Shown: positions 2,261-49,912, counted from the stretch's first letter. The stretch: DNA of 64,000 bases from Actinomycetota bacterium (GCA_020201525.1 JAIVGO010000105.1:57-64056); one strand, 5' to 3'. Notes: generated by a model from the letters alone, not told the origin. Numbers and translations are program-made.

Positions 2261-2263
2261 TGT

Positions 2264-3190: not shown

Positions 3191-3193
3191 GCG

Positions 3194-4640: not shown

Positions 4641-4714
4641 TGCCCCTCCTCAGGCCGCTTCGCCGGCTTGTTCGAGCGCGTCCCGAGTTGGCATTCACCC
4701 GGCCGGTTGGCAAA

Positions 4715-4728
4715 CTGACGGTGTGTCA
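4715..4728. promoter_or_regulatory. 14-bp palindromic motif CTGACGGTGTGTCA (TGAC-N5-GTCA) in the WS/DGAT-lipase divergent promoter; candidate TetR operator
   Basis: Identical 14-mer recurs at 17763-17776. Inverted repeat TGAC/GTCA. Overlaps the GTG start of the lipase. Confidence 0.5.
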
Positions 4729-5985
4729 CAAACCTATCTGATCCTCAGCATCATTGCTCTGGCGTCGACCGTCAATGCCCTCCGCCCGCTTCCGTGGACG
4801 TTCCTGTCGGTCCCCAGCTTCTTCGTCGCGTGGCTGACGACCGAGCTCGCCCCGCACCACCTCGCCGCGAATGTGGCCGTGAGCGCAGTGCTGATTTCGA
4901 TGGGAGCTCTGCACGGGCTCAAGGGCTGGCTGGCGCTCGGTTTTTCCCTCGTGACGGCAGCCGGGCTCATCGCGTTGATCGTCGAGTCGCAGCGAACCCG
5001 TGAGGTTGTCGAGCACGCGCTGCAAAAGGACTTGCGGGCCGACTATTTGTCGTGCATCGTGCCGGAGCGGGCGTCGCGATACGACTTGCGTGTGCCGTGG
5101 CGGCAGCTACTCCTTCCGTTCTATATGCGCCATCCCGACGTCGAACGCACCAAGAACGTGCCGTACGGCGAAGTTCGCCGACGAAACTTGCTCGACGTCT
5201 ACCGGCACAAGTCCCATCCCACCGGCGCGCCGACGCTGCTGCAGATCCACGGCGGGGGCTGGGTGATTTCGAACAAGAACCAGCAAGGGAAACCGATCAT
5301 GCTCCATCTCGCGTCGCGAGGCTGGGTGTGCTTCGCACCCAACTACCGGTTGTCGCCGCGTGCGATATGGCCGGCGCACATCGTCGACGTGAAGCGGGCC
5401 CTCGCGTGGATCCGTGAGCACGGCGCGGCCTACGGGGCCGATCCGGGGTTTGTCGTGGTGACCGGGGGATCGGCCGGCGGACACTTGGCGGCGCTGATGG
5501 CGCTGACGGCGAATGATCCCGCGTATCAGCCGGGATTCGAAACCGCCGACACGTCGGTACAAGCCGCAGTGCCGCATTACGGCGTGTACGACATCGCGAA
5601 CGAGACCGGCTTGAAAGGTCTCGCGCAGCGGCTCAAGATGCTAGAGGTCGTCGTGTGGAAGAAGAAGTACGCGGATGCGCAGGATGAGTTCCACCAGGCG
5701 TCGCCGCTGTTCCGCGTGCACGAGGGCGCGCCGCCGATGTTCGTGATTCACGGCGCGCACGACTCGCTCGTCCCGGTCGAAGAGGCGCGGCATTTCGTCG
5801 AGCGGTTGCGCGCCGTGTCGAAAGCACCGGTCGTGTACGCCGAGCTACCGGGAACGCAACATGCCTTCGATGTATTTCCGTCGATTCGGACCGCACACGT
5901 CGTCCGCGCGTTCGAGCGCTTCGTCGATTACGTCTATTGCACACGAAACGAGGCCGCTACCGCCGCTCCTCAGGTGCAACCGTAA
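4723..5985 (+). CDS. Membrane-anchored alpha/beta-hydrolase, HSL-family (HGGG) esterase/lipase
   Basis: HGGGW oxyanion motif, GGSAGG (GxSxG nucleophile) and HGAHDSLVP (catalytic His). N-terminal ~100 aa has predicted TM helices. GTG start at 4723, divergent from WS/DGAT. Confidence 0.85.
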   Translation: MSQTYLILSIIALASTVNALRPLPWTFLSVPSFFVAWLTTELAPHHLAANVAVSAVLISMGALHGLKGWLALGFSLVTAAGLIALIVESQRTREVVEHALQKDLRADYLSCIVPERASRYDLRVPWRQLLLPFYMRHPDVERTKNVPYGEVRRRNLLDVYRHKSHPTGAPTLLQIHGGGWVISNKNQQGKPIMLHLASRGWVCFAPNYRLSPRAIWPAHIVDVKRALAWIREHGAAYGADPGFVVVTGGSAGGHLAALMALTANDPAYQPGFETADTSVQAAVPHYGVYDIANETGLKGLAQRLKMLEVVVWKKKYADAQDEFHQASPLFRVHEGAPPMFVIHGAHDSLVPVEEARHFVERLRAVSKAPVVYAELPGTQHAFDVFPSIRTAHVVRAFERFVDYVYCTRNEAATAAPQVQP

Positions 5986-7531
5986 TGCCAAGCGCGTCGA
6001 AATCCCAGGTTTCTGCGGACACGCCGCGATCTCTGAGCAGATGCTTCATCACCCGCATCGTCGCATTGCGTGGTAGCTCGGGGAGAAGCTCGACGTAACG
6101 CGGGATCGCAAAGTACGGCAGCGCGTCTTTGAAGAAAAAGAAGAGCTCCTCCGGTGAAATCTCTTCCCCGGCAACGAGCACGATGCACGCTTTGATGTCA
6201 TCTTCCGTCATCGCGCTCGGGATGCCGTGCACGGCAGCTTCCGCGATCTTTGGGTGCGCGATGATGGCCATTTCGAGCTCCACGCTCGAAATGTTCTCCC
6301 CCCGCCGGCGAAGCGCGTCCTTCTTGCGGTCGACGAAGGTGATCGAGCCATCCTCGTTTGCGCGACCGTAGTCGCCGGTGTGGTGCCACAAATTGCGCCA
6401 GGCCTTCAGCGTCTCCTCGGGTTTACGCCAGTACCCCTTGAAGATCGTGTTCGGCTTCTTCGGACGAACCACGATTTCTCCGAGTGCTCCGACCGGCACT
6501 TTCATATCGTCGTCATCGACGAGGCGGACGTCCAAGTAATACGCCGGCGAGCCGACGCTGTTGAGATTGCGCGGCCCGGAGAGAACGCTGTACGCGATCG
6601 CACCGCATTCGGTCTGCCCGTAGAGCTGGCTGAGCACCGTCGCGCCGAAGCGCTTCATGAATTCGTGCTGCTGCTGCTCCGAAAAAGGGATCATGAGCGC
6701 GACGCGCAATTTGTGCGCGCGGTCTTTCTCGCTCGGCGGCACCCCGAGCATCGCCATGCCCATCGCACCGACGCCGGCGAAGACGGTCGCACCGGTCTCA
6801 ATGCTTCGCTCGAGAAGCCGTCCGACCGAGAAAATTGGATCGACGACCGCCGGCAGCTTGTGCACGAGAGCGCCCATCACCATTCCCTGCGCCCACGCGT
6901 GAAAAAGCGGCAAAGCCGTGAAGAGCACATCGTCGGCTATGTACTCGCACATCTCGCTCGCCATCGTCGCACCGGTCAGGTAATAGCCGTTGGGCAGCAT
7001 GCACCCCTTCGGCATCCCCGTTGTTCCCGACGTGTAGAGGATCGAGAGAACGTCCGACGGCTCGATCTCCACGTCGGGGACCGCTGCCTCCGTGTGGTGC
7101 AGCGTGGCGTACGGGATCGCTCCCTCCGTATGGTCGAACGCGATGATGCGCTTCAAGACCGGCAGGTCGCTCAGAATGCCCGCGGCTGCTTGGTATCCGG
7201 CTTCGTCGACGATGAGCGTCTCCGCCCGTGAGTCGTCGAGCTGGTACCGAAGAAAGTCGCCCTTCAGGAAAATATTGAGCGGCACTTGGATCGCACCCAA
7301 CTTTGCGCACGCAAAGAACACTTCGAGCATTTCGATGCGGTTCGAAGAAATGATGGCGACACGATCGCCCTTTCGTACGCCGAGCTCCGCGAGCCCTGCC
7401 GCGACCCGCTCGGAGCGATCGTTTGTCTGAGCAAACGTCAATTGATCGTCGGCGCACCACAGGAACAAATCGTCGGGAATCTCATTTGCGCGCTCGCGCA
7501 AGAGCGCCCCAACCACCATCGTGGACGTCAT
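5957..7531 (-). CDS. AMP-dependent acyl-CoA synthetase (FadD-like)
   Basis: YTSGTTGMPKG AMP-binding motif and ...GDYG... core. 524 aa. Confidence 0.9.
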   Translation of the reverse strand: MTSTMVVGALLRERANEIPDDLFLWCADDQLTFAQTNDRSERVAAGLAELGVRKGDRVAIISSNRIEMLEVFFACAKLGAIQVPLNIFLKGDFLRYQLDDSRAETLIVDEAGYQAAAGILSDLPVLKRIIAFDHTEGAIPYATLHHTEAAVPDVEIEPSDVLSILYTSGTTGMPKGCMLPNGYYLTGATMASEMCEYIADDVLFTALPLFHAWAQGMVMGALVHKLPAVVDPIFSVGRLLERSIETGATVFAGVGAMGMAMLGVPPSEKDRAHKLRVALMIPFSEQQQHEFMKRFGATVLSQLYGQTECGAIAYSVLSGPRNLNSVGSPAYYLDVRLVDDDDMKVPVGALGEIVVRPKKPNTIFKGYWRKPEETLKAWRNLWHHTGDYGRANEDGSITFVDRKKDALRRRGENISSVELEMAIIAHPKIAEAAVHGIPSAMTEDDIKACIVLVAGEEISPEELFFFFKDALPYFAIPRYVELLPELPRNATMRVMKHLLRDRGVSAETWDFDALGITVAPEERR

Positions 7532-7569
7532 CGCGGTGCTCCGGTGTCGTTCGGCCGTTGCAGTACGCG

Positions 7570-7581
7570 GATGCTAGCATC
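7570..7581. promoter_or_regulatory. Perfect 12-bp palindrome GATGCTAGCATC in the divergent fadD / NDP-forming-ACS intergenic region
   Basis: Self-complementary 12-mer centred in a 77-bp divergent promoter region. Confidence 0.4.
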
Positions 7582-7608
7582 GCACCGTTTCGGAGGCAGA
7601 AAGGAATC

Positions 7609-9708
7609 TTGTTGGCAACGACCGACGTTACCGGTCGCCCCGTTGCGTCACGCAACATCGACCTCGAACGGCTTCTGCGTCCCAAAGTGATCGCAGTCGT
7701 CGGTGCGTCAGATTCGCCGGGCAGCCAGAGCGCGCTGAATTACCGGATGATTCACGGGTGGTCGGATACGCTCGGACGAAAGGTCGTTCCGATCAACCCC
7801 AATCGAGACTCGGTCGGCGGCGAGAAGTGCTACGCATCTCTGAAGGATGCGCCGGACGAGATCGACGTTGCCGTGGTGATCACGTCCGACGCCGCAGGTG
7901 CCCTTCGCGATGCCGCAGACGCTGCCATCCCCTTCGTCGTCATCTTTACCGCTGGATTTTCCGAGACGGGCGATGAAGGAGTGGCGCGGCAACAGGAAAT
8001 CGAAGAGATCATCGCGTCGAGCGGAGTCCACGTCCTCGGTCCCAACACACCGCTGAACAGCTTTCAGCCGTTCCGCGAGGATCTTCCCGGCAAGCGCATT
8101 GGCCTGATCACGCAGTCGGGACACCAAGGCCGTCCGATTTATCAAGCGCAAGAGCTCGGCGTCGCGTTGGACGGGTGGGCGCCGACCGGGAACGAATCGG
8201 ATCTCGAGTCCGCCGATTTCATCCGCTACTTCGCCGATCGCTCCGAGGTGGGTGCGATCGCGTGCTACCTCGAGGGCTTCAAGGACGGTCGCACCTTGAT
8301 GCTCGCGCTTGATCACGCCGCGCAGAAACGGGTGCCTGTGACGATGATCAAGGTCGGACGCAGCGACATCGGCCGCTCGTGGGCAAAGTCCCATTCCGGC
8401 CATCTCGCGGGGAGCGATGCGGTGACGTCCGCAGTCTTGCGCCAATACGGCGTGACACGTGTCGACGGCCTCGACGAATTGCTCGACGTATCGAAGATGT
8501 TCGCGCGTTCGGCGTCGCCGGCGGGAGACGGCGTGGCGATTTACTCGATCTCGGGCGGGACGAGCGCGCACATGGCCGACTGGGCTGCCTCGATGGGTCT
8601 GCGTATGCCGGAGCTCACGATGGAAACACAGAGGACGTTGCGCGAGTGGATTCCAGGATTCTTGCGCGTCTCGAACCCGATCGACAGCGGCGGCATCGCG
8701 ACCGGCGACGAGCGCGGCCCGAAGATCCTCGATGCGATTCTCGCCGACCCTCATGTAGATGTGCTCATCGCGCCGGTGGCCGGCTCGTTCTCGCCGATCA
8801 GCGACAAGCTTGCACGGGACCTTGTTGCCGCTGCTGAAAAGGCCGACAAGCCCGTGTGCGTGATTTGGGGGTCGCCCACGGCCGACGAAGAAGGATACCG
8901 TGAGGTTTTGGTTCGCTCCCAGGTCCCGTTGTTCCGCAGCGCGCGGAACTGCTTGGTCGCGGTGAAAGCGTACCTCGATTACCACGCATTTCTTTCCTCC
9001 TACAAGTCCCCGTATGCCAAACCGGTTGTTCGCCCATTACCCGCCGCACGCACTGCACGAGCTTTGCTGAGAGACGGCGCTTCGCTATCGGAGCATCGAT
9101 CGAAAGAGTTGCTCGCGGCATACGGAATCCCGGTGACAAAGGAATCATTGGCGGTGAGCGCCAAGGAAGCCGTGCGCGCTGCGGAGCTGATCGGATATCC
9201 GGTCGTCATGAAAGGTTCCTCGCAGTCCCTGCTGCACAAGTCGGATCTCGGCCTCGTTCGATTGAACGTTCCGAACGCGCACGAAGTTCGTACAACCTTT
9301 ACCGACTTGATGAAGATCGACCGGGTCGACGCCGTTCTGGTGTCGGAAATGATCTCGGGTGGCATAGAAACAGTAGTCGGCGTGTCCCGGGACGAGATCT
9401 TCGGCCCGGTGATCATGTTCGGTCTCGGCGGGATCGCCGTCGAAGTATTCAAGGACGTGACGTTCCGGGTGCCGCCGTTTGACAAACGCGGGGCGCGGTT
9501 GATGCTCCAAGAGATCAAGGCGTTTCCTTTGCTGCAAGGCGCTCGAGGCCGGCCGAAGGCAGATCTCAGGGCAATCGTTGACGTGATCATGAAGGTGCAG
9601 CGCCTCGCGATGGATCTATCCGACGACATGGACGAGCTCGACATCAATCCGCTGGTCGCGCTCCCGGACCGCGCCGTCGCACTCGACGCGCTCGTCGTCG
9701 CTCGCTGA
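7609..9708 (+). CDS. NDP-forming acyl-CoA synthetase (ACD-type, fused alpha/beta: CoA-binding + succinyl-CoA-synthetase-like + ATP-grasp); TTG start at 7609 or 7612
   Basis: KVIAVVGASDSPGS CoA-binding N-terminus, and the ligase-CoA and ATP-grasp halves align to ADP-forming acetyl-CoA synthetase. The tool's 7423 start would overlap the divergent fadD. GGAGG..AAAGGAA RBS lies before the TTG. Confidence 0.8.
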   Translation: MLATTDVTGRPVASRNIDLERLLRPKVIAVVGASDSPGSQSALNYRMIHGWSDTLGRKVVPINPNRDSVGGEKCYASLKDAPDEIDVAVVITSDAAGALRDAADAAIPFVVIFTAGFSETGDEGVARQQEIEEIIASSGVHVLGPNTPLNSFQPFREDLPGKRIGLITQSGHQGRPIYQAQELGVALDGWAPTGNESDLESADFIRYFADRSEVGAIACYLEGFKDGRTLMLALDHAAQKRVPVTMIKVGRSDIGRSWAKSHSGHLAGSDAVTSAVLRQYGVTRVDGLDELLDVSKMFARSASPAGDGVAIYSISGGTSAHMADWAASMGLRMPELTMETQRTLREWIPGFLRVSNPIDSGGIATGDERGPKILDAILADPHVDVLIAPVAGSFSPISDKLARDLVAAAEKADKPVCVIWGSPTADEEGYREVLVRSQVPLFRSARNCLVAVKAYLDYHAFLSSYKSPYAKPVVRPLPAARTARALLRDGASLSEHRSKELLAAYGIPVTKESLAVSAKEAVRAAELIGYPVVMKGSSQSLLHKSDLGLVRLNVPNAHEVRTTFTDLMKIDRVDAVLVSEMISGGIETVVGVSRDEIFGPVIMFGLGGIAVEVFKDVTFRVPPFDKRGARLMLQEIKAFPLLQGARGRPKADLRAIVDVIMKVQRLAMDLSDDMDELDINPLVALPDRAVALDALVVAR

Positions 9709-10586
9709 TGGCCGGGCTACCATCTCCGCCACCCGACGGCAGCACCGTCCTGGCCGAGGGCGCATTCGCAGGGTCCGTTGTGTTGATCACCGGGGGTGGA
9801 ACAGGGCTCGGGAAAGCGATCGCGATGGAGTTCGCACGTCTGGGCGCAGCGATCGCGATCGTCAGTCGCAACGAGGAGCATTTGTCGGCCGGCCGCCTGG
9901 CCGTGGAGCAACTCGGGGCAAAGTCGTGCGCGGCCGCCTGTGATATCCGCGATCCCGCGCTCGTGGCGTCGGCGTTCGACGTGGTTTCCGACGAGCTCGG
10001 CCTACCCGACATCCTGATCAACAACGCAGCCGGAAACTTTCCGGTTCCGGCCGAAGACATGAGCGCGAACGCGTGGCGTTCCGTCACGCAAATCGTCTTG
10101 GACGGAACGTTCTTCTGCTCGCGGGAATTCGCGCGCCGGCACATTGCGGCCGGCATCCCGGGCTCGGTGGTCAATATCGGTGCCTCCTACGCCTGGACCG
10201 GCGGACCCGGCTTCGCCCACTCCGCCGCGGCGAAAGCCGGCGTGAAGAACCTCACAGAAACGCTGGCCGTCGAATGGGCGCCCTACGGCATCCGCGTGAA
10301 CATGATCGTCCCCGGATTGGTCCCGCATGCCGATGAAACAGCCGACATCAAGGCGGTTCCGTCTCGCGGCCAAAACGAGGACGCGCGATCGCCGGCGATG
10401 CGCGTCGGTCAACCGCGAGAGATCGGCTGGGCTGCGACGTTTCTTTGTTCGCCCTATGCGTCGTATATCACCGGCGCAACGCTGACGGTCGACGGGGCGA
10501 ATTGGCAACGACGTGCAATGCTGCAGCCCGAATTCCGCGCGATCCGCGAACAGCTCGGCAAAGAGCCCTTCGCGTTGGAGGACTAA
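9708..10586 (+). CDS. SDR-family oxidoreductase (2,4-dienoyl-CoA-reductase-like)
   Basis: TGGGTGLG Rossmann motif and YAWTGGPGFAHSAAAKAG (YxxxK-like) active-site region. ATG overlaps the upstream stop (TGATG). Confidence 0.85.
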   Translation: MAGLPSPPPDGSTVLAEGAFAGSVVLITGGGTGLGKAIAMEFARLGAAIAIVSRNEEHLSAGRLAVEQLGAKSCAAACDIRDPALVASAFDVVSDELGLPDILINNAAGNFPVPAEDMSANAWRSVTQIVLDGTFFCSREFARRHIAAGIPGSVVNIGASYAWTGGPGFAHSAAAKAGVKNLTETLAVEWAPYGIRVNMIVPGLVPHADETADIKAVPSRGQNEDARSPAMRVGQPREIGWAATFLCSPYASYITGATLTVDGANWQRRAMLQPEFRAIREQLGKEPFALED

Positions 10587-10588
10587 TT

Positions 10589-11425
10589 ATGCAGGACAAG
10601 GTTGTCGTCATAACCGGCGCGAATTCGGGAATCGGCAAGGAAACCGCGCGCGGGCTGGCGCAAAAGGGAGCGCGCGTCGTCATGGTGTGCCGTAACCCCG
10701 AAAAGGGCGCGCGCGCCGCTGAAGAGATTCGAAAAGATGCGCCCGGGGGAGTCGACCTCGTCGTCGGAGATCTCGGGACGCTCGGATCCACGCGCGATCT
10801 TGCAAAGATCCTGATCGATTCGTATCCCAAGATCGACGTTCTGGTGAACAACGCCGGCGTGTACAGGCTCCGTCGCACGCCAACGGCCGACGGCTTCGAA
10901 GAGACGTTTGCAGTGAATCATTTGGCGCCGTTTCTGCTCACGAACCTTCTGCTCGATACCGTGCGCGCAAGTGCGCCGTCACGCATCGTTGTTGTTGCGT
11001 CGGATGCGCACCGCGGTATGAGGATGGAATTCGACGACCTGCAAAGCGAACAGCGCTACAAGGCGCAGACTGCGTACGGGCGCTCGAAGATGGCCAACAT
11101 CATGTTCACGTATGCGCTGGCGAGACGACTCGAAGGCACGGGTGTCACCGTCAACGCACTGCATCCCGGATTCGTCGCGAGCAATTTCGGCAGTGGGAAC
11201 AAAGTCCCGGTAAAGCCGGTCATGATGATCCTCGGTCTTTTCGTCCTGAGCCCGAAACAGGGCGCAGAGACACCGATCTACCTCGCGTCCTCGCCCGACG
11301 TGGACGGAGTGAGCGGAAAGTACTTCTACAAAAGCCGTCCCAAGGAGTCGACCGAGCCCACGTACGACGTCGCGGCGCAAGAGCGCTTATGGATGATCAG
11401 CGAGCAGCTCACCGGCCTCGCCTAG
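10589..11425 (+). CDS. SDR-family oxidoreductase (retinol-dehydrogenase/WWOX-like); start re-set to MQDKVVVITGANSGIGKE
   Basis: TGANSGIG motif and YGRSK (catalytic YxxxK). GGAGGA RBS before the ATG at 10589. The tool's N-terminal extension overlaps the previous gene. Confidence 0.85.
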   Translation: MQDKVVVITGANSGIGKETARGLAQKGARVVMVCRNPEKGARAAEEIRKDAPGGVDLVVGDLGTLGSTRDLAKILIDSYPKIDVLVNNAGVYRLRRTPTADGFEETFAVNHLAPFLLTNLLLDTVRASAPSRIVVVASDAHRGMRMEFDDLQSEQRYKAQTAYGRSKMANIMFTYALARRLEGTGVTVNALHPGFVASNFGSGNKVPVKPVMMILGLFVLSPKQGAETPIYLASSPDVDGVSGKYFYKSRPKESTEPTYDVAAQERLWMISEQLTGLA

Positions 11426-11432
11426 CGCGGCA

Positions 11433-11723
11433 TCACTCGCCGACGAACAATCCGTTCGGCGCGATGGTGAAATCCTCGGTCACCGGCACGTACCCGCGCA
11501 GCCCGTTTCCGTCGTCGACGGCAACCAGCACGCGCAGATTTTCGCCCTCCCGGTCGTCCCAGAAGGCTTCGATCTCCACTCGGTAGAGCGTTCCGCTGTC
11601 CGGTCCCTCGATTTCTCGCGCGTGCGGGTCGTCGAGAAACGTCTCGACAAGCTCGTCGTAGGACATGTCGCGCAGCTCGTCGAGGACGGCACCGATCACG
11701 CGCTGCGCTTCCGCCCGGTTCAT
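11433..11723 (-). CDS. Small acidic hypothetical protein (96 aa), translationally coupled to the upstream enoyl-CoA hydratase (ATGA overlap)
   Basis: ATGA start/stop overlap with the ech gene, and protein-like composition. No recognisable family. Confidence 0.55.
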   Translation of the reverse strand: MNRAEAQRVIGAVLDELRDMSYDELVETFLDDPHAREIEGPDSGTLYRVEIEAFWDDREGENLRVLVAVDDGNGLRGYVPVTEDFTIAPNGLFVGE

Positions 11724-12499
11724 CGACCGCGGAATTTCGGCTCTCGTCCTTCGGCTCGGGCAGCCTTTCCTTCGGCGTAATCCTCCGAGCCGAACACGAT
11801 CGTCTGACCAAGCATCTCTTCATGCATGGACCGCTCGACTTCAGCTGTAGCAAGGGAGGAAATGATGCTGCGTGCCATGCGCACCGCGAGCGGCGCGCGT
11901 TTTGCGATCTCGTGCGCGAGCGCCAGGGCTTCCTCGTCGAGAGCGTCGAGCGGCACGACTTTCGACACGATGCCGTGCCGGTGAGCCTCTTCGGCCCCGA
12001 TGATGCGCCCGGTAAGCGCGAGCTCCGTCGCGACTCCGTGACCGGCCATTTGGAACAGGCGCGCCATGCCGCCGGAGTCGGGAATGACACCGTGGCCGGT
12101 TTCCGGCAATCCCATGCGTACGTCCTCGGCGGCGATTCGCAGATCGCAAAGCAGCGCGCGCTCGAACGATCCGCCGAGAGCCCAGCCTTTCAGGGCTGCG
12201 ATGATCGGCACCGGCATCGTGAAGAGCAGCTTCGTCTTGGCGTGACCCGCCGCAATGAACTCGAGGTCACTCTCCCCTTTCGCGCGCACTCCCAACTCCG
12301 CTGTGTCCCGGCCGGAAGAGAACGACTTCCCTTCGCCGCGCCAGACGACCGCGCGGACATCCGGCCGCTCGTGAAGCTCGGCGAGAACGTCGAAAAATCG
12401 AGCGTCCATTTCGTCGTTGAAGGCGTTGTGTCGCTCCGGCCGGTTGAGGCTGACGACCGCAACCGCGCCGTCAAAAGTGAGGCGAACCGTGTCGCTCAT
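11720..12499 (-). CDS. Enoyl-CoA hydratase/isomerase (crotonase family)
   Basis: LNRPERHNAF and ...GGSFERALLCDLRIA crotonase motifs. 259 aa. Confidence 0.9.
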   Translation of the reverse strand: MSDTVRLTFDGAVAVVSLNRPERHNAFNDEMDARFFDVLAELHERPDVRAVVWRGEGKSFSSGRDTAELGVRAKGESDLEFIAAGHAKTKLLFTMPVPIIAALKGWALGGSFERALLCDLRIAAEDVRMGLPETGHGVIPDSGGMARLFQMAGHGVATELALTGRIIGAEEAHRHGIVSKVVPLDALDEEALALAHEIAKRAPLAVRMARSIISSLATAEVERSMHEEMLGQTIVFGSEDYAEGKAARAEGREPKFRGR

Positions 12500-14028
12500 A
12501 CGCCGAACCTCGTGCGCAACTCCATCTTCACGACTTTTCCGGCCGGGTTCCGCGGCAATGCGTCGACGATCTCGAGCTGCTCCGGCAGCTTTTGGATGAT
12601 GAGGCCTTTGCCCTTGAGGAATGAAACCATCTCGTCGAATGTCAGCGCATTGCCGGCGTCCTTACAGACGACGACGGCGCATGCGCGCTCGCCGGACTCG
12701 GCGTCCGGTAACCCGATGACCGCGACGTCGGCCACTTTTTCATGCGTGAATAAGAAGTCCTCGAGCTCCTTCGCGCTGATGTTCTCGCCCTTACGAATTA
12801 TGATGTCTTTCAAGCGCCCGGTGATCGCGAGGAAGCCGTTTTCGTCGAGGCGGCCGAGGTCGCCGGTTCGGAAATACCCGTCTTCATCGAACGCTTCCAC
12901 GTCCAGCGACGAGTCAAGATATCCCTTCATCATCTGCGGGGCTTTCGCCCGCACTTCGCCTTCTTCGTTCGGACCGGCTATGCGGCCGTCGAGCGTGACG
13001 AGCTTCAGCTCGACGCCGGCCATCGGGCGCCCTTCCGACAACGCAAGCGCGTCGTCGGGATCGTCGACGCTCGCCATCGTGAGGATCGGGGATTCGGTCA
13101 GTCCGTACCCCGATACCACGCCCGCACCTCCGAGCTCTTTCTTCACGTCGTAGTGAATCTGTGGCGGCTTCGTTGCGCCGCCGCCCGGGTAGCAGCGCGC
13201 CTTGGGAAACAGCTTTTGGGATGGATTCTCACGCTGCGCCTTTAGGTAGGCGAGGTGGAAGAACGTCCCCGAGCCGGCGATCGTAACGTTTTCGCGTTGC
13301 AACATCTCGACGGTCTTCACCGGATCGAACGCTTCGTCGAGAAGATTGGTGAAACCGATCAGCAGGCTCGCGACCATCCACGTGATGCCGCCGATGTGGG
13401 TGAACGGAAAGACGAGCGCGCTGCGATCCTGGGAAACGAGCGCGAGTCGCTCCGACATCCCCGCGGCGGTGACGACGAGATTCTTGTCGGTGTGTTGCGC
13501 GCCCTTGGGGTCCGCCGTCGTGCCCGACGTGTAGAACAGCCAGCGCACCGCATCGCTCGCCGGCGATGCGTCGAGCAGCGTCGACGGATCCTCGGCCGGA
13601 AGCTCCCGATCACAAACAAGAACGTCCAGGCCATCGGTGTTCTTGGCAATGCCGCGCGCCATCGCTTCGAATTCGAAGCCGCGCCACTCGGACGGAACGA
13701 TGAGAAGCCGCGTTGCCGCCTGCTTGGCGATGAATCCGACCTCGCGCTCGCGGTAAATCGGAAGGATCGGGTTCTGCAACGCCCCGAGCCGGCAGAGTGC
13801 GCCGACCAGCACAACTGAATCGATCCACGTCGGCAACTGCCACGACACCACCGTTCCCTTACCGACACCCATGGCAGCGAGCCCCGCGGCGGTTTCCTCG
13901 GCGCGCTGTTGCAATGCAGCGAAGGTCAGCGATTCGCCGCGCTCATCCACCGCGGTCGTCGCGTCCGGCGTTTCCGCAGCCCTCTTCTCGATCAGCCGCC
14001 AGATCGTGTCTGCCGCCAGCATCGACAT
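12496..14028 (-). CDS. AMP-dependent acyl-CoA synthetase; start re-set to the internal MSMLAADTIW
   Basis: YTSGTTADPKG motif. The tool's N-terminal 32 aa is junk and would overlap the DUF35 gene. Stop overlaps the ech start (ATGA). Confidence 0.85.
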   Translation of the reverse strand: MSMLAADTIWRLIEKRAAETPDATTAVDERGESLTFAALQQRAEETAAGLAAMGVGKGTVVSWQLPTWIDSVVLVGALCRLGALQNPILPIYREREVGFIAKQAATRLLIVPSEWRGFEFEAMARGIAKNTDGLDVLVCDRELPAEDPSTLLDASPASDAVRWLFYTSGTTADPKGAQHTDKNLVVTAAGMSERLALVSQDRSALVFPFTHIGGITWMVASLLIGFTNLLDEAFDPVKTVEMLQRENVTIAGSGTFFHLAYLKAQRENPSQKLFPKARCYPGGGATKPPQIHYDVKKELGGAGVVSGYGLTESPILTMASVDDPDDALALSEGRPMAGVELKLVTLDGRIAGPNEEGEVRAKAPQMMKGYLDSSLDVEAFDEDGYFRTGDLGRLDENGFLAITGRLKDIIIRKGENISAKELEDFLFTHEKVADVAVIGLPDAESGERACAVVVCKDAGNALTFDEMVSFLKGKGLIIQKLPEQLEIVDALPRNPAGKVVKMELRTRFGV

Positions 14029-14050
14029 CCCCCTCCGCGTGATCGTTGCA

Positions 14051-14494
14051 TCAGTCCCCCACCAGCGTCCAAGCAGGCAGTGTAATGTCGGCTTCTTTCC
14101 GCCAGCGAAGCGCGACGCGCGCACCCATCGCTAAGCCTTCCGCGGTCCCATCGGTCTGCAGCAACGTGCCCTCGTCGTCGACGAGCTGGCCGACCATGCG
14201 AATGCCTTCGTCCAGCTCGACCAGCAGGACGACGAGCGGTAGTCGATCCGCCCATACCGGAAGGACCGGTGGGTGCAGAACCGTCCACGACGCGACGCGC
14301 CCGTTGCCGCTCACTTGCGTCCACACCGGATTGGTTGCCCGGCACCGGTAGCACACCGGACGCGGCTGCCAGATCCACTGCCCGCAACTCGCGCAACGCG
14401 GAACGATGAGCATGCGTTCGGCGACCCCGTCCCAAAATGGCAGCGTGTCTTGATCCGGAACGGGTCGCGGTGGAAGCGGTGGGGCGGCGCTCAT
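14051..14494 (-). CDS. DUF35-family OB-fold/Zn-ribbon protein (ChsH2 C-terminal-domain-like partner of an SCP-x thiolase/aldolase)
   Basis: CASCGQ...CYRC zinc ribbon followed by an OB-fold pattern. 4-bp overlap with the upstream Ltp2-like gene. Confidence 0.85.
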   Translation of the reverse strand: MSAAPPLPPRPVPDQDTLPFWDGVAERMLIVPRCASCGQWIWQPRPVCYRCRATNPVWTQVSGNGRVASWTVLHPPVLPVWADRLPLVVLLVELDEGIRMVGQLVDDEGTLLQTDGTAEGLAMGARVALRWRKEADITLPAWTLVGD

Positions 14495-15618
14495 GCCGGC
14501 TCCTTCGAAAAGACGATCGCCCCCGTCGGCACGACGGCCCCGCTCGTCACAAGGCAGTGATTCACGCTCTCGACTTGTGTCGTCGATGTGCCCCGAACCT
14601 GGCGCACCCCTTCGACCAACAGATTGAATCCGTGCACGTATGCCTCCGACAGCCCGCCGCCGCTCGTGTTGTAAGGCGGCGCTTCACCCGACGCGATGTA
14701 CGCGGGGGCGTCGCCTTCATCGCAAAAACCGTACTCGTGGTAGGACAGCAAAACCTGCGGCGTGAATGCGTCGTAGAACTGGACGACATCGATGTCGTCG
14801 GGTTTCAAGCCGGTGTTGCGCCACAACTCCGGCGCAACGTAGGACGCCGGGGTCACCCCCAACTCGTCGCCGTAGTAGAACGTCATCGCATACCCCTGCG
14901 GGCCGCTTCCCAGCGCGTAGCCCCTGACGTACACCGGCGTGACGTCGAGATCTCGCGCCCGCTCCTCGCTCGTCAGCACCATCGCGAGCGCCCCGTCGGT
15001 CTCCAAGCAGTTATCGAACAGACAGAGCGGTTCGGCGACCCAACGAGAGCTCAGATACTCCTCCATCGTCAGATCCTTGCGCATCATCGCCATCGGGTTC
15101 GCCTGCGCGTGACGGCGTTGCGTGATCGCAACGTTGCCGAAGTCTTCGCGCTTCCACCCGTATTTGTGCATCCAGACGCGAGTGTGCAACGCCATGCCGT
15201 CGGCGGGACGCACGAGACCATGCGGACGCTCGAACTGATCTTGTCCTTCCGCCATGATTTGCCCGACCCAGGGACGCCCTCCCGACGAGCGATTACGCGA
15301 GCGCCACACGACGACGACTTCGGCGAGACCGAGCTCGATCGCCATAGACGCGAGTGCCATAGTCGGGGCACCCGCTCCCCCGCCGTAATCTTGCGCGCCG
15401 AAGAATCTGAGGTTCTGGACGCCGATCACGCGCGCCATCTCCATCTCGGTCGTCGGCTGCCACACATACCGGCACATGCCGTCGACGTCGGCGACCGTCA
15501 AGCCCGCGTCTTTCAACGCCCCGAGAATGGCGAGGGCGCCCGAGTGTCGCTCGGTCATTCCGATGTTCTTCGAGAACGGCAGGCCGTGCAGGCCGACGAC
15601 GACCGCTTTGCGGCTCAT
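14491..15618 (-). CDS. SCP-x/Ltp2-type thiolase-fold protein (candidate steroid side-chain retro-aldolase/thiolase)
   Basis: Thiolase-like fold lacking canonical FadA motifs, with a C-terminal ...GGGLSEAYVHGFN... pattern typical of Ltp2/SCPx. Followed by a DUF35 gene. Confidence 0.85.
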   Translation of the reverse strand: MSRKAVVVGLHGLPFSKNIGMTERHSGALAILGALKDAGLTVADVDGMCRYVWQPTTEMEMARVIGVQNLRFFGAQDYGGGAGAPTMALASMAIELGLAEVVVVWRSRNRSSGGRPWVGQIMAEGQDQFERPHGLVRPADGMALHTRVWMHKYGWKREDFGNVAITQRRHAQANPMAMMRKDLTMEEYLSSRWVAEPLCLFDNCLETDGALAMVLTSEERARDLDVTPVYVRGYALGSGPQGYAMTFYYGDELGVTPASYVAPELWRNTGLKPDDIDVVQFYDAFTPQVLLSYHEYGFCDEGDAPAYIASGEAPPYNTSGGGLSEAYVHGFNLLVEGVRQVRGTSTTQVESVNHCLVTSGAVVPTGAIVFSKEPA

Positions 15619-16556
15619 AGGAATGCTGCCATCGTTTCGGCTCGCTCATCGTTGCTTCCGAAGTGCGTCGCCAGGAGAGCCGCGCGCTTCAGAAAAAGAT
15701 GCACGTCTACCTCCCACGTGAATCCCATGCCGCCGTGCACCTGCACGCACGCTTTGCCGTTCGCGACGGCTGCTTCGTTCGCGAGCAGTTGCGCCGCGAC
15801 GACTGCGCGCGTTTCGTCCCCAGCGGACGGGTCGTCGAGAATCACGCCCGCGGCGTAGACGGCCGCGCGTGCCACCTCGGCGCGGACGAGCATGTCCGCG
15901 CAGATGTGCTTCACGGCCTGAAACGATCCGATCGGGCGGTCGAACTGCCGCCTCTCTTTCGCGTACGCGACGGCGCGCTCGGTAACGGCGGTCGCGATGC
16001 CGACTTGATATGCAGCGGTCAGCGCCGCGCCGCGCAACTTCATTCCCGCACCATCCGATGCAAGAAGCTGACCCTTCGGGAGAGACGCAGCCGCATAAAG
16101 TGGCGTCAGGGGATCAAGAAACGCATCAACCTGCCCGCCCTGAACGTCGTCCGCATCACAAACCCAAACACCGTCTGGCGCCAGGATCAGCAGGCGATCT
16201 AACGAATCGAGGTGCTCCACAAGGAGAGGCGACACGTCGCGATCAACCATCCCAACAATTCCCGTCAGCCCGAAATCGGCACCAAGATGCGTCGCGACGA
16301 GCGGCCCCGGAACAAGTGCGCGGCCGAGCTGCTCGAAGACGAGCACCGCTTGCGTGCAGCCGAGACCGACGCCGCCTTCGTCCTCCGGTAGGCGCAACGA
16401 GAAAACGCCGGCGTCCACGAGCTCTGACCACATCTCTTGATCTAGCGCTCCCGTCTCTTCGCTGGCGCGGATCCGGTCCATCGTGAAACGGCCCCGGCAC
16501 AGCTCGACGATCCCGCTTTGCAGAGCGAGATCGTCGGCGCTCAACTCGAAATCCAC
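15615..16556 (-). CDS. Acyl-CoA dehydrogenase, small (beta-type) subunit of a likely heteromeric alpha2beta2 ACAD
   Basis: 313-aa ACAD fold (...GSFQAVKH...). Lies immediately after a 393-aa ACAD with no gap, as in ChsE/FadE28-29-type pairs. Confidence 0.8.
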   Translation of the reverse strand: MDFELSADDLALQSGIVELCRGRFTMDRIRASEETGALDQEMWSELVDAGVFSLRLPEDEGGVGLGCTQAVLVFEQLGRALVPGPLVATHLGADFGLTGIVGMVDRDVSPLLVEHLDSLDRLLILAPDGVWVCDADDVQGGQVDAFLDPLTPLYAAASLPKGQLLASDGAGMKLRGAALTAAYQVGIATAVTERAVAYAKERRQFDRPIGSFQAVKHICADMLVRAEVARAAVYAAGVILDDPSAGDETRAVVAAQLLANEAAVANGKACVQVHGGMGFTWEVDVHLFLKRAALLATHFGSNDERAETMAAFL

Positions 16557-17738
16557 TCAGCGCTCCTTCGGCAATCCAAGAATGCGCTCGCCCACGATGT
16601 TGCGTTGCACTTGCGACGTTCCGGCCGCGATCGTCATCGACATCGCGTGAAGCCAGCCGCGGACATGTTCGGCTGTCTCCTGATCCTCCAGCGATAGCGA
16701 CGAGCGATCGAGGAGGCGCATCGCGAGGTCCCCCATCCGGTGACGAGCCTCTGTGTAGTGGAGCTTGAACACCGACCCTCCGAGGCCCGGGACGCCCGTC
16801 CCGCGCGCGGCTTGCGTTACATTGCGCTTCGTCAGCGCCCACAGCGCATCGAAGTCGGCCGCCAGGTGTCCCAAGTCCCTGCGGATGCCGGCGTCGTCCC
16901 ACGCGGTTCCGTCTGCGCGTGGAATCTTTCGTGCGAGATCGGCGAGACGTTCGAGCATCCGCAAGGACGAAAGCAGCTCGCTCACAAATGCGGTTCCACG
17001 CTCGAAGCTGAACGTCACCATCGCGATGCGCCAGCCGTCGTTTTCGTCCCCAACGCGATTCGCCACCGGCACCCGCACGTCGTTGAAGAACACTTCGCTG
17101 AATTCGCGAGAGCCGGCGATCGTCCGCATCGGCCGCACCTCGATGCCCGGCGCGTCCATCGGCAGGATGAGCCATGTAATGCCCTCGTGCTTCGGAGCAT
17201 CCGCGTCGGTACGCACCAACAGCTCCCCGTAATCGGCAACGTGCGCAAATGAGGTCCAAATCTTTTGGCCGTTGACGACGTAGTGATCTCCGTCTCGGAC
17301 CGCCTTCGTCTGCAACGAGGCGAGGTCCGAGCCGGCGTTCGGCTCCGAGAAACATTGGCACCAAACTTCCTCGCCGCGCAGGATCTTCGGCAAGAATCGA
17401 GCCTTTTGCTCGTCACTACCTTCCGCGACGAGCGTAGGCCCGGCGTGCAACAGGCCGACGAAATTCACGCCGACGTACGGCGCGCCGGCTCGTTCGGTCT
17501 CTTCGAGAAAGATCAACTGCTCCGCAGGCGTTGCTTCGCGCCCGCCGACGGCACGCGGCCAATCGATGCCGGCGTAACCTGCCTCGAACAGCATCCGCTG
17601 CCACGTCGTGTCGTAGGTGCGCCGTGCGTGCCACTCCTCCCCCGAAGGCTTCGGCGGCAATGCCGGAAGCACATTCAGGAGCCACGCACGCAACTCCGCG
17701 CGAAAGCGTTCTTCTGATTCCGAGTACCTGAGATCCAC
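16557..17738 (-). CDS. Acyl-CoA dehydrogenase, large (alpha-type) subunit; start re-set to GTG (VDLRYSESEERF...)
   Basis: The ACAD N-terminus consensus begins at DLRYSESEERFRAELRAWL. The tool's 82-aa N-terminal extension is Arg-rich junk and overlaps the NTF2 gene. The CTGACGGTGTGTCA motif lies 25 bp upstream. Confidence 0.8.
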   Translation of the reverse strand: MDLRYSESEERFRAELRAWLLNVLPALPPKPSGEEWHARRTYDTTWQRMLFEAGYAGIDWPRAVGGREATPAEQLIFLEETERAGAPYVGVNFVGLLHAGPTLVAEGSDEQKARFLPKILRGEEVWCQCFSEPNAGSDLASLQTKAVRDGDHYVVNGQKIWTSFAHVADYGELLVRTDADAPKHEGITWLILPMDAPGIEVRPMRTIAGSREFSEVFFNDVRVPVANRVGDENDGWRIAMVTFSFERGTAFVSELLSSLRMLERLADLARKIPRADGTAWDDAGIRRDLGHLAADFDALWALTKRNVTQAARGTGVPGLGGSVFKLHYTEARHRMGDLAMRLLDRSSLSLEDQETAEHVRGWLHAMSMTIAAGTSQVQRNIVGERILGLPKER

Positions 17739-17762
17739 CGGGCGACCAGTATAAATAGGAAT

Positions 17763-17776
17763 CTGACGGTGTGTCA
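17763..17776. promoter_or_regulatory. Second copy of CTGACGGTGTGTCA, 25 bp upstream of the ACAD alpha-subunit start (internal promoter within the long minus-strand array)
   Basis: 14/14 identical to the site at 4715-4728. Confidence 0.5.
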
Positions 17777-17815
17777 GGCGCCGTCGGAAGGACTCTCTGA
17801 TGACCGTCCAGCTGC

Positions 17816-33045: not shown

Positions 33046-33047
33046 AG

Positions 33048-49060: not shown

Positions 49061-49132
49061 ACATCTCCTTCACGCGCTTCCACGCGCCTCTCGCCAGCGC
49101 CACAACAAAAACCTCGCCTTTTTTCGGTGTTG

Positions 49133-49759: not shown

Positions 49760-49912
49760 CGAAGCACCTCCACTCTTGGGACCCCGAGCCGGGCCCTCAC
49801 CCTCTGGCTTTTGTGACGCGGTGTCAGGATTCGCTTCGCCGGGGGTTCATTCCTGCCGCAATCGGGTGGAATTCGGACGGCGAATATAGCCGTTTGCCTG
49901 GCGGAACGTCTA

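What the first reader, a model, noticed from the sequence alone, without database searches (positions are those of the whole stretch)
4715..17776. Identical 14-bp palindrome CTGACGGTGTGTCA at two promoters: candidate operator for a second, unassigned regulator
The same 14-mer (TGAC-N5-GTCA inverted repeat) occurs at 4715-4728 and again at 17763-17776. The first copy is in the divergent promoter of the WS/DGAT-cyclase-LLM-isochorismatase-TetR operon and the membrane lipase, where it overlaps the lipase GTG. The second copy is 25 bp upstream of an ACAD alpha-subunit gene inside the long minus-strand array. A 14/14 identity in 64 kb is unlikely by chance. It is not a KstR or KstR2 (AnCAAGnnCTTGnT) motif. 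The TetR gene that terminates the WS/DGAT operon (1-660) is the obvious candidate cognate repressor (autoregulation).
Basis: seen in the sequence. Interest (0 to 1): 0.7.

Follow-up and report, generated by a model that had tools for sequence, protein, structure and literature searches.

The report
Conserved TetR operator at lipid-gene promoters
The repeated 14-mer is a real repressor-binding site: two weakened copies of a 19-bp palindrome that sits on lipid-metabolism promoters across many actinobacteria and that travels with the TetR-type regulator gene at the window's edge, so it is an ordinary kind of gene switch belonging to an unstudied regulator family.

Summary
The 14-mer CTGACGGTGTGTCA is at both stated positions. 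Comparison with relatives rescues the idea.

- **Motif.** Both copies are imperfect instances of a 19-bp palindrome, A-T/C-CTGACGG-N-CCGTCAG-A/G-T.
- **Enrichment.** In 495 kb around 80 metagenomic orthologs of the window's TetR (Pfam TetR_C_38), the 15-bp core occurs 15 times exactly. Scrambled palindromes average 0.02.
- **Link to the TetR.** In about 40 loci the motif lies directly upstream of the TetR gene or of an isochorismatase-TetR pair. The TetR recognition helix (TSPATFYQYF) is invariant from 45 to 100% identity.
- **Conservation.** Site 1 (WS/DGAT | lipase) is kept in two relatives and lost in two others. Site 2 (ACAD alpha) is kept in four fetched contigs (two with the same upstream sequence), each with the same TATACT -10 box.
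- **Architecture.** The usual layout is operator, then a -10 box, then 6-9 nt, then the start codon, as expected for leaderless transcripts. The variant half-site GTGTCA supplies the lipase GTG start.
- **Other sites.** A weaker site lies at 49813, and a strong one lies about 5 kb beyond the window start.

No binding or ligand data exist. The TetR has no close solved structure and no curated family name. It is not KstR, KstR2, BkaR or Mce3R, and probably not FdmR. I rate it a new member of a known kind, of moderate interest.

The parts
4713..4731 (.). Operator site 1. The 19-mer is AACTGACGGTGTGTCACAA and the 15-bp core is 4715-4729. It lies in the divergent WS/DGAT-operon / LipQ promoter region, and the LipQ GTG (4723) is inside its variant right half.
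   Evidence: The weight-matrix score is 15.9 bits, second best in the window. The orthologous position holds an identical core in L099 and CTGACGGAGTGTCAG in L005. It has been lost in L002 and L003.
17761..17779 (.). Operator site 2. The 19-mer is ATCTGACGGTGTGTCAGGC and the 15-bp core is 17763-17777. It lies in the 78-bp gap between the DUF4440 gene and ACAD alpha.
   Evidence: It is the best weight-matrix match in the window, at 22.0 bits. The orthologous position upstream of ACAD alpha in L101-L104 carries consensus operators scoring 28.7-31.4 bits.
17748..17753 (-). Predicted -10 box TATACT of the ACAD-alpha promoter. It lies 9 nt downstream of the operator core and 9 nt upstream of the GTG at 17738, so the predicted transcription start is about 17738-17741.
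   Evidence: TATACT is conserved upstream of the ACAD-alpha orthologs in L101-L104. The same layout is seen in 55 of 126 operator-adjacent genes.
12496..17738 (-). Probable transcription unit controlled from site 2: ACAD alpha (16557-17738), ACAD beta (15615-16556), thiolase-like (14491-15618), ChsH2-type OB protein (14051-14494) and FadD-type ligase (12496-14124).
   Evidence: Pfam assignments. The genes abut or overlap. The same gene order follows the operator in L101, L102 and L104.
1..660 (-). TetR-family regulator gene (TetR_N + TetR_C_38), the proposed cognate repressor. It is 223 aa in full, and its last 3 codons run off the window start.
   Evidence: Pfam and the full gene in L001. Orthologs sit next to the motif. 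The recognition helix is invariant. The AF2 model has pLDDT 88 and an EthR-like fold.
657..4639 (-). WS/DGAT (3194-4639), cyclase (2264-3190), LLM monooxygenase (1274-2260) and isochorismatase (657-1274). These genes are tightly packed or overlapping and end in the TetR gene, so the operon is probably autoregulated from site 1.
   Evidence: Pfam and gene calls. The same cluster with operators occurs in L005 and L099.
4723..5985 (+). LipQ-like membrane esterase/lipase. Its GTG-TCA start lies inside the operator, and it is probably translated from a leaderless transcript.
   Evidence: Pfam and NCBIfam. The N-terminus is homologous in L005, L002 and L003 and begins at the same GTG.
4711..4716 (+). 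Putative weak -10 element CAAACT, 6 nt upstream of the LipQ GTG. Its last two bases are the first two bases of the operator core.
   Evidence: CA(A/G)ACT is conserved at the same distance in L002 and L005, and AACACT occurs one nt further upstream in L003. This is an inference. It is not a canonical TANNNT box.
4731..4736 (-). Putative -10 box TAGGTT for the WS/DGAT operon, 1 nt upstream of the operator. The transcription start would fall inside the operator, giving a leader of about 85 nt with a GGAGGGG Shine-Dalgarno sequence.
   Evidence: Read from the sequence. TAGATT lies at the same place in L099. This is an inference, because the element lies inside the LipQ coding sequence.
49811..49829 (.). 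Candidate third operator, TTGTGACGCGGTGTCAGGA. It lies 53 nt upstream of the GTG (49759) of a 208-aa signal-peptide protein, which is followed by an 848-aa secreted protein. Neither protein has a Pfam match.
   Evidence: Third best weight-matrix match, 13.7 bits, and intergenic. Its conservation in relatives was not tested.

Best explanation
The two 14-mers are operators of one TetR-family repressor: the PF19352 (TetR_C_38) protein encoded at 1-660.

A dimer would bind the palindrome A-T/C-CTGACGG-N-CCGTCAG-A/G-T, which is placed on or next to the -10 box of its target promoters.

- **Site 1.** One operator sits across two back-to-back promoters. Its left half overlaps the weak -10 box and discriminator of the leaderless LipQ gene. 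Its right half contains the LipQ GTG. On the other strand it lies just downstream of the -10 box of the WS/DGAT-cyclase-LLM-isochorismatase-TetR operon. Binding there would shut off both promoters and make the TetR autoregulated.
- **Site 2.** The operator covers the -35/spacer region of a conserved TATACT promoter that starts the ACAD alpha/beta-thiolase-OB-FadD unit, probably as a leaderless mRNA.

A lipophilic effector, most likely an acyl-CoA or a related lipid intermediate, would release the repressor.

**Shown here:** the motif, its enrichment, its positional link to the TetR gene, the orthologous conservation of both sites, and the promoter geometry.

**Inferred:** that this TetR is the binding protein, that it represses, and what the ligand is.
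For: 1. **Motif.** 92 non-redundant sites from 97 related loci give a 19-bp palindrome.
2. **Enrichment.** In 495 kb around 80 TetR orthologs, the 15-bp core has 15 exact matches, 40 at up to 1 mismatch and 69 at up to 2 mismatches. 300 palindromes with scrambled half-sites average 0.023, 0.64 and 9.6.
3. **Link to the TetR.**
   - 39 of 80 loci have a site within 4.2 kb upstream of the TetR, clustered at -23 to -150 and at -636 to -689.
   - Counting the first gene next to each site gives TetR 25 times, isochorismatase (followed by TetR) 16, Amidohydro_2 17, FadD 15, ADP-forming ACS 14, LLM 10 and ECH 8.
   - Among loci fetched with the ACS protein, all 5 that encode a TetR ortholog carry the motif. 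The 6 loci without the motif have no ortholog.
4. **Recognition helix.** TSPATFYQYF is invariant in 23 orthologs of 45-100% identity, which matches the constancy of the operator.
5. **Site 1 is conserved** in L099 (identical core) and L005.
6. **Site 2 is conserved** upstream of ACAD alpha in L101-L104, together with TATACT.
7. **Architecture.** 60 of 126 operator-adjacent genes have TANNNT 6-9 nt before the start codon, against 0.7% of all ATG/GTG positions. The operator core ends 1 nt or 7-10 nt before the -10 box.
8. **Fold.** The AF2 model (pLDDT 88) is closest to EthR (TM 0.72/0.81), followed by the acyl-CoA sensors FadR, DesT and FasR.
Against: - There is no binding, expression or transcription-start data.
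- Both window sites deviate from the consensus by 2-3 bases in one half, so affinity may be low.
- Site 1 has been lost in L002 and L003, and the ACAD gene of L005 has no intergenic operator. Individual sites therefore turn over.
- About half of the TetR-centred loci show no site. Many are 1-2 kb contigs, and operons such as the window's put the promoter 4 kb away.
- Co-localisation cannot exclude that another factor encoded elsewhere binds the motif.
- The ligand rests only on the functions of the regulon genes and on fold neighbours.
- The weight matrix was built from sites selected with a consensus, so core-position frequencies are inflated. The flank positions and the scrambled-palindrome control are not affected.
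Confidence: 0.8

Rival explanations
1. The motif is a genuine operator, but it is bound by a different regulator from the TetR at 1-660. Candidates are another TetR paralog, one of the two-domain relatives, or the IclR-type regulator encoded a few kb beyond the window start. In that case the TetR_C_38 gene is simply one member of the regulon.
For: - Co-localisation does not identify the binding protein.
- A TetR_C_20 regulator is divergent from the motif in 3 loci.
- An IclR gene lies near the L001 19569 site.
- Two half-site classes exist, CTGACGG and CTGACAC, including pure class-II palindromes. These could reflect two proteins.
Against: - The TetR_C_38 ortholog is by far the most frequent regulator next to the motif, in about 40 loci across distant taxa.
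- Its DNA-reading helix is invariant, as the operator is.
- No other regulator family recurs to a comparable extent.
Confidence: 0.12
2. The motif is a promoter element rather than a repressor site. It would be a -35-like or UP-like sequence read by RNA polymerase or by an alternative sigma factor at leaderless promoters.
For: It sits at a fixed distance (1 nt or 7-10 nt) upstream of -10 boxes in 39 promoters.
Against: - It is a perfect dyad, which is typical of dimeric HTH proteins and not of sigma-factor elements.
- It also occurs downstream of -10 boxes and across start codons.
- It occurs in tandem pairs 17-29 bp apart.
- Its distribution follows one TetR gene.
Confidence: 0.04
3. The palindrome works at the RNA level, or is a dispersed REP-like repeat. 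At site 2 it would be a hairpin or terminator between the DUF4440 gene and the ACAD gene.
For: At site 2 the + strand folds into an 11-bp hairpin with free energy -18.3 kcal/mol and z-score -4.6.
Against: - That hairpin is on the non-coding strand of the gene array.
- The transcribed (-) strand folds weakly (-8 kcal/mol), and site 1 shows no stable fold.
- The core palindrome leaves a 1-nt loop.
- No Rfam family matches.
- There are only 3 sites in 64 kb, and none at up to 2 mismatches in the six motif-negative ACS-centred loci (about 110 kb), none of which encodes a TetR ortholog.
- The sites lie upstream of start codons, not after stop codons.
Confidence: 0.02
4. The repeat is a chance coincidence with no function.
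For: 155 other 14-mers also recur in the window. Site 1 scores only at the 95th percentile of the best match in shuffled windows.
Against: Both positions carry the same motif in orthologous promoters of several relatives. The motif is enriched by more than two orders of magnitude near the TetR.
Confidence: 0.02

Closest known systems
Acyl-CoA-responsive TetR repressors of lipid metabolism (Thermus and Bacillus FadR, Pseudomonas DesT, Mycobacterium FasR, KstR2, FdmR/Rv0238)
   Same: - It is a single-domain TetR protein.
- It has a short palindromic operator overlapping promoters.
- Its regulon consists of acyl-CoA ligases, ACADs, enoyl-CoA hydratases and thiolases.
- It is probably autoregulated.
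- These proteins are among the nearest folds after EthR.
   Different: - Sequence similarity is only at family level. The best profile matches to PDB chains outside EthR are YvdT at 2.4e-6, DesT at 5e-5 and Bacillus FadR at 1.6e-4.
- The operator is different: KstR2 reads AnCAAGnnCTTGnT, and BkaR reads GTTA-N-T-N4-A-N-TAAC (PMC3920632).
- The C-terminal domain is Pfam TetR_C_38.
- No ligand is known.
- FdmR is conserved in all mycobacteria (PMC4482099). This family shows no mycobacterial member among the 120 closest relatives of its Nocardia representative. I could not retrieve FdmR's operator sequence.
EthR (Rv3855) of M. tuberculosis
   Same: It is the closest solved structure by sequence (E = 5.5e-8 with the profile) and by fold (TM 0.72/0.81). 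EthR has a long hydrophobic ligand tunnel.
   Different: Identity is about 19%. According to PMC4482099, the EthR motif is larger, more complex, present in multiple copies and not a classical short palindrome. Here the operator is a single 15-19 bp dyad, and the regulon is different.
Mce3R (Rv1963c) regulon of M. tuberculosis
   Same: From my own knowledge, the Mce3R regulon contains a heteromeric ACAD pair (fadE17/fadE18), an LLM monooxygenase, ribA1, a flavin reductase and an SDR. Similar gene types lie next to the motif in this genome.
   Different: Mce3R is a fused double TetR that binds asymmetric, non-palindromic 25-bp sites (PMC11667970). The protein here is single-domain and its operator is a dyad. 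A profile search of the PDB does not retrieve Mce3R at E <= 0.01.
KstR regulon, in the same window
   Same: It is also a TetR repressor with a palindromic box at promoters of lipid or steroid-type catabolic genes. Both systems are interleaved within the same 64 kb.
   Different: KstR boxes (TAGAACACGTTCTA at 33046, 34634, 35371, 37804 and 52606) share no half-site with CTGACGG.

Membership tests
TetR-family repressor with a palindromic operator | N-terminal TetR-type HTH domain and an all-helical C-terminal ligand domain | tested here: met
   TetR_N scores 28.9 bits against a cut-off of 24. TetR_C_38 has E = 5e-39. The AF2 model has 10 helices and pLDDT 88. The fold matches EthR at TM 0.72/0.81.
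TetR-family repressor with a palindromic operator | Dyad-symmetric operator of about 15-20 bp overlapping the promoter of target genes | tested here: met
   A 19-bp palindrome from 92 sites. The sites abut or overlap -10 boxes or start codons.
TetR-family repressor with a palindromic operator | Operator in the regulator's own promoter (autoregulation) and genomic linkage of regulator and targets | tested here: met
   Sites lie directly upstream of the TetR ortholog in 24 loci and of the isochorismatase-TetR pair in 16 loci. In the window, the operon that ends in the TetR starts at site 1.
TetR-family repressor with a palindromic operator | Sequence-specific DNA binding that is released by a small-molecule ligand | not testable with these tools
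   This needs EMSA or footprinting, with and without candidate acyl-CoAs or lipids.
KstR / KstR2 regulons | Operator TnnAACnnGTTnnA (KstR) or AnCAAGnnCTTGnT (KstR2) | tested here: not met
   The site sequences CTGACGGTGTGTCA(G/C) do not fit either pattern. Genuine KstR-type boxes lie elsewhere in the window.
FdmR (Rv0238) fatty-acid degradation repressor | Orthology to Rv0238, a TetR conserved in all mycobacteria including M. leprae (PMC4482099) | tested here: inconclusive
   The 120 closest relatives of the Nocardia member include no protein named as Mycobacterium. They drop from 83% to 53% identity after three Nocardia entries. I did not have the Rv0238 sequence, and the FdmR paper (PMC8072231) is not held.
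Mce3R-type double TetR | Two fused TetR modules in one chain and an asymmetric 25-bp operator (PMC11667970) | tested here: not met
   The protein is 223 aa with one HTH and the operator is palindromic. Two-domain relatives of 430-486 aa do exist in the wider family, but the window protein is not one of them.
BkaR / Fad35R (Rv2506) | Operator core GTTA-N-T-N4-A-N-TAAC (PMC3920632) | tested here: not met
   The half-site is different.
Intrinsic terminator or REP-like dispersed repeat | Stable RNA hairpin on the transcribed strand followed by a U-run, or high copy number in intergenic regions after genes | tested here: not met
   Folding on the transcribed strand is weak. There are 3 sites per 64 kb. 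The sites precede start codons. There is no Rfam hit.

The most novel reading that the evidence does not exclude
The operator may double as part of the gene start. In a recurrent hybrid form, CTGACGG-N-(G/A)TGTCAG, the non-consensus half supplies the GTG or ATG start codon of a leaderless gene. Examples are LipQ here, in L005 and in L099, the ADP-forming ACS in L010 and L017, and a FadD in L003. The same 15 bp would then encode the repressor site, the transcription start and the initiation codon. In addition, the two half-site classes (GG versus AC at core positions 6-7), together with the pure class-II palindromes CTGACACAGTGTCAG next to the TetR gene, could form a graded or two-regulator code. 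The two-domain relatives of this TetR might take part in it. Three of the four sites in this genome carry the rare class-II half, which makes up about 3% of half-sites overall.
Probability: 0.25. Interest if true: 0.55.

Novelty: new member of a known kind. Interest (0 to 1): 0.4.

Why it matters
This work gives an uncharacterised TetR subfamily a predicted operator, a predicted regulon and a predicted promoter layout. The subfamily is Pfam PF19352. It forms 189 clusters at 50% identity with E <= 1e-30, and it is widespread in soil Acidimicrobiia, uncultured Actinomycetota, Streptomyces and some Nocardia.

- **Predicted regulon.** Acyl-CoA ligases, an ADP-forming acyl-CoA synthetase, heteromeric ACADs, hydratases, thiolases, LLM monooxygenases, Amidohydro_2 enzymes, a wax-ester/triacylglycerol synthase and a lipase.
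- **Biological implication.** One repressor would link neutral-lipid storage and mobilisation with a beta-oxidation-like pathway.
- **Testability.** The predictions can be tested directly in culturable Streptomyces.
- **Use for annotation.** The motif marks promoters and probable leaderless starts in metagenome-assembled genomes.

It is not a new kind of mechanism.

Tried and rejected
- **Chance.** I counted repeated 14-mers (155).
- **Literature search for the motif.** Three searches for CTGACGG, CCGTCAG and TGACGG combined with operator or TetR found nothing relevant.
- **FdmR.**
  - The PNAS paper is not held.
  - Other papers give only the locus tag Rv0238 and the protein's function.
  - The motif table in Balhana et al. 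has logos only, and Rv0238 is not in it.
- **BkaR and Mce3R operators.** I read both descriptions and both differ.
- **PDB sequence searches.** A single-sequence search and a profile search gave only family-level hits.
- **NCBIfam.** The only hit is a sub-threshold one to FabR.
- **Representative-library search.** I reran it with alignment A2.
- **Cluster names.** Only generic names such as 'TetR family transcriptional regulator' are given.
- **Leaderless analysis.** I corrected it.
- **Crude coding mask.** It over-extends ORFs upstream, so it flags sites 1 and 2 as coding. I used it only as a conservative bound: 42 of 107 sites fall inside predicted coding sequence, against 84% of all bases.
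- **Operator upstream of the window's own ACS gene (7531-7612).** None is present. Relatives have one there, so it has decayed in this genome.
- **Not done.** I could not scan the whole source genome for the motif. Only the window and about 10 kb beyond its start were available.

Full report
**1. Observation**

CTGACGGTGTGTCA is present at 4715-4728 and 17763-17776, both on the + strand. There is no other match at up to 2 mismatches.

Pfam and the public gene calls confirm the context. A tightly packed minus-strand operon runs WS/DGAT (3194-4639), cyclase, LLM monooxygenase, isochorismatase and a TetR (TetR_N + TetR_C_38, 1-660). It is divergent from a LipQ-like lipase (4723-5985) whose GTG lies inside the motif. 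The second copy lies in a 78-bp gap, 24 nt upstream of the GTG (17738) of the alpha subunit of a heteromeric acyl-CoA dehydrogenase.

The window comes from an uncultured Actinomycetota MAG, GCA_046262895.1.

155 different 14-mers recur in the window, so a 14/14 identity is expected many times over.

**2. What the element is**

I fetched loci around relatives of the ADP-forming acyl-CoA synthetase gene (7612-9705), because a 10-kb flank around it spans both sites. A scan for TGAC-N5-GTCA showed the motif just upstream of that gene's orthologs in 8 loci, and looser matching raised this to 11 of 17 loci. The hits were always a longer palindrome, CTGACGG-N-CCGTCAG.

From 92 non-redundant sites the motif is A-T/C-CTGACGG-N-CCGTCAG-A/G-T.

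The window copies are imperfect. Site 2 is CTGACGG-T-GTGTCAG and site 1 is CTGACGG-T-GTGTCAC.

With a weight matrix built from the other genomes, these two are the best matches in the window (22.0 and 15.9 bits). A third site at 49813 scores 13.7, and the next best position scores 9.0. A fourth, near-consensus site (TTGACGGGCCGTCAG, 20.1 bits) lies about 5 kb beyond the window start, between an SDR gene and a ribA-flavin reductase pair (L001 19569).

**3. Which regulator**

*Co-occurrence in the ACS-centred loci.* TetR orthologs (44-64% identity) occur in five of the ACS-centred loci. All five carry the motif. In L006 a site lies just upstream of the TetR gene, in L005 upstream of the isochorismatase-TetR pair, and in L014 a weaker match lies at the TetR start.

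*An independent, TetR-centred test.* I fetched 80 metagenomic loci centred on orthologs of the TetR, 495 kb in all.
- The 15-bp core occurs 15 times exactly, 40 times at up to 1 mismatch and 69 times at up to 2 mismatches.
- 300 palindromes built from scrambled half-sites average 0.023, 0.64 and 9.6.
- 39 of 80 loci have a site within 4.2 kb upstream of the TetR. The sites cluster directly in front of the gene and about 640-690 bp upstream, which is in front of an isochorismatase-TetR pair.

*First gene next to each site*:

| Gene family | Count |
|---|---|
| the TetR itself | 25 |
| Amidohydro_2 | 17 |
| isochorismatase | 16 |
| FadD-type ligases | 15 |
| ADP-forming ACS | 14 |
| LLM monooxygenases | 10 |
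| enoyl-CoA hydratases | 8 |

SDRs, CoA-transferases, ACADs, thiolases, WS/DGAT and LipQ appear less often.

*Recognition helix.* TSPATFYQYF is invariant across 23 orthologs of 45-100% identity. That fits an operator which does not change between Acidimicrobiia, uncultured Actinomycetota and Streptomyces.

**4. Both window sites are conserved at orthologous promoters**

*Site 1.* The closest relative I found (TetR 79% identical, L099) has the identical core between LipQ and WS/DGAT. L005 has CTGACGGAGTGTCAG there. L002 and L003 have lost it.

*Site 2.* Four contigs carry ACAD-alpha orthologs of 75-83% identity (L101-L104); L102 and L104 have the same upstream sequence. All four have consensus operators (28.7-31.4 bits) followed by the same TATACT box and, 9-10 nt later, the start codon.

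*Turnover.* Relatives have strong sites upstream of ACS and of isochorismatase that have decayed in this genome. Individual sites are therefore gained and lost within a stable regulon.

**5. How it probably works**

Among 126 operator-adjacent genes, 60 have a TANNNT hexamer 6-9 nt before the start codon. Only 0.7% of all ATG/GTG positions do. This is the signature of leaderless transcripts.

In 55 of these the order is operator, -10 box, start codon. The operator core ends 1 nt (16 cases) or 7-10 nt (23 cases) before the -10 box, so it sits over the spacer and the -35 region. Window site 2 belongs to this class: gap 9 nt, TATACT at 17753-17748, then 9 nt, then the GTG.

In a second class the start codon lies inside the operator. 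The non-consensus half (G/A)TGTCAG supplies the GTG or ATG. This applies to LipQ in the window, L005 and L099, to ACS in L010 and L017, and to a FadD in L003.

This explains why site 1 carries the variant half and overlaps the lipase GTG.

On the opposite strand of site 1, TAGGTT (TAGATT in L099) lies 1 nt upstream of the operator. A bound dimer would therefore also sit on the transcription start of the WS/DGAT operon, which ends in the TetR gene. That gives autoregulation.

These promoter assignments and repression itself are inferences.

**6. Effector**

No effector was tested.

The AF2 model is confident (pLDDT 88). Its nearest solved folds are EthR (TM 0.72/0.81), followed by the acyl-CoA sensors FadR, DesT and FasR.

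Together with a regulon of CoA-thioester enzymes, this makes an acyl-CoA or another lipid ligand the most likely effector. The confidence in this is low.

**7. Comparison with known systems**

- The motif is not a KstR or KstR2 box. KstR-type boxes occur elsewhere in the window.
- It differs from the BkaR box (PMC3920632) and from the asymmetric Mce3R sites (PMC11667970).
- The protein has no close solved relative, no specific NCBIfam model and only generic names in public records.
- FdmR (Rv0238; PMC12403877) is the closest functional analogue. It is conserved in all mycobacteria (PMC4482099). The Nocardia member of this family has no protein named as mycobacterial among its 120 closest relatives, so orthology is unlikely. 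I could not see the FdmR sequence or its operator.

**8. Rivals**

- **Chance** is excluded by the orthologous conservation.
- **An RNA hairpin or terminator** is unlikely. The strong fold at site 2 is on the non-coding strand. The transcribed strand and site 1 fold weakly, and there is no Rfam hit.
- **A sigma-factor promoter element** does not fit a perfect dyad that also occurs downstream of -10 boxes and in tandem pairs.
- **Another protein reading the motif** is the only serious alternative. I give it about 12%.

**9. Verdict**

This is an ordinary mechanism, a TetR repressor with a palindromic operator, in an uncharacterised but widespread subfamily. The prediction of its operator, regulon and promoter layout is clean and testable.

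Novelty: new member of a known kind. Interest: 0.4.

Noticed in passing
window 33046, 34634, 35371, 37804, 52606: KstR-type boxes (TAGAACACGTTCTA and close variants) recur five times. Part of the window therefore belongs to a KstR-like steroid or lipid regulon that is interleaved with the regulon described here.
   Followed up: no
window 7531-7612: The FadD | ADP-forming ACS intergenic region has no operator. Eleven of 17 relatives, and the closest relative L099 (28.2 bits), have one there. The flanking GATGCTAGCAT is kept but the operator has decayed, so this gene pair seems to have left the regulon in this genome.
   Followed up: partly
window 17762-17788 (+ strand): Next to site 2 there is a third half-site-like element, CCGTCGG (17781-17787), exactly 10 bp beyond the variant half. 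With CTGACGG it forms an 11-bp hairpin on the + strand with free energy -18.3 kcal/mol and z-score -4.6. Its meaning is unknown. It could be a second binding register or a terminator for antisense transcripts.
   Followed up: partly
window 17771-17800 and 17800-18075 (+ strand): The GTG inside site 2 opens a 9-codon ORF. Its stop overlaps (TGATG) the ATG of a 91-aa ORF that is antisense to the DUF4440 gene. This is probably spurious, but the geometry matches the 'start codon inside the operator' class.
   Followed up: no
window 46514-49759 (- strand): Downstream of candidate site 3 lie a 208-aa protein with a signal peptide and an 848-aa secreted protein. Neither has a Pfam match. They are unusual members for a lipid-catabolism regulon.
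   Followed up: partly
L056 1576, L062 1607, L073 1449, L092 2100, L093 11637: Perfect 'class II' palindromes, CTGACACAGTGTCAG, lie immediately downstream of the TetR gene. In three of the five loci (L062, L073, L093) a luciferase-like monooxygenase gene starts a few nt after the site. The window genome is also rich in the CTGACAC half-site: 3 of its 4 sites carry it, against about 3% of half-sites overall.
   Followed up: partly
P0138, P0141, P0142, P0146, P0148, P0152, P0156, P0157 and others: The wider family contains proteins of 430-486 aa with two consecutive matches to the TetR profile. These are fused double TetRs, reminiscent of Mce3R but not retrieved as its relatives.
   Followed up: no
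L007 (CAZTOV010000002.1, labelled Burkholderiales MAG): This locus has an ACS ortholog of 57% identity preceded by a near-consensus operator (28.7 bits), in a bin labelled as proteobacterial. This points to mis-binning or horizontal transfer.
   Followed up: no
L008 6107/6129, L014 9808/9832, L095 2930/2953, L062 762/779, L035 615/644: Operators occur as tandem pairs spaced 17-29 bp apart (start to start) in several divergent promoter regions. This suggests two dimers per control region in those loci.
   Followed up: no
L001 14942-21446 (beyond the window start): Downstream of the TetR lie an LLM, an SDR, a GDSL lipase, an IclR regulator, a second SDR, the strong operator at 19569, then ribA (DHBP synthase/GTP cyclohydrolase II) and an FMN reductase. 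From my own knowledge, this gene set resembles the mycobacterial mel2 (Rv1936-1941) locus.
   Followed up: no
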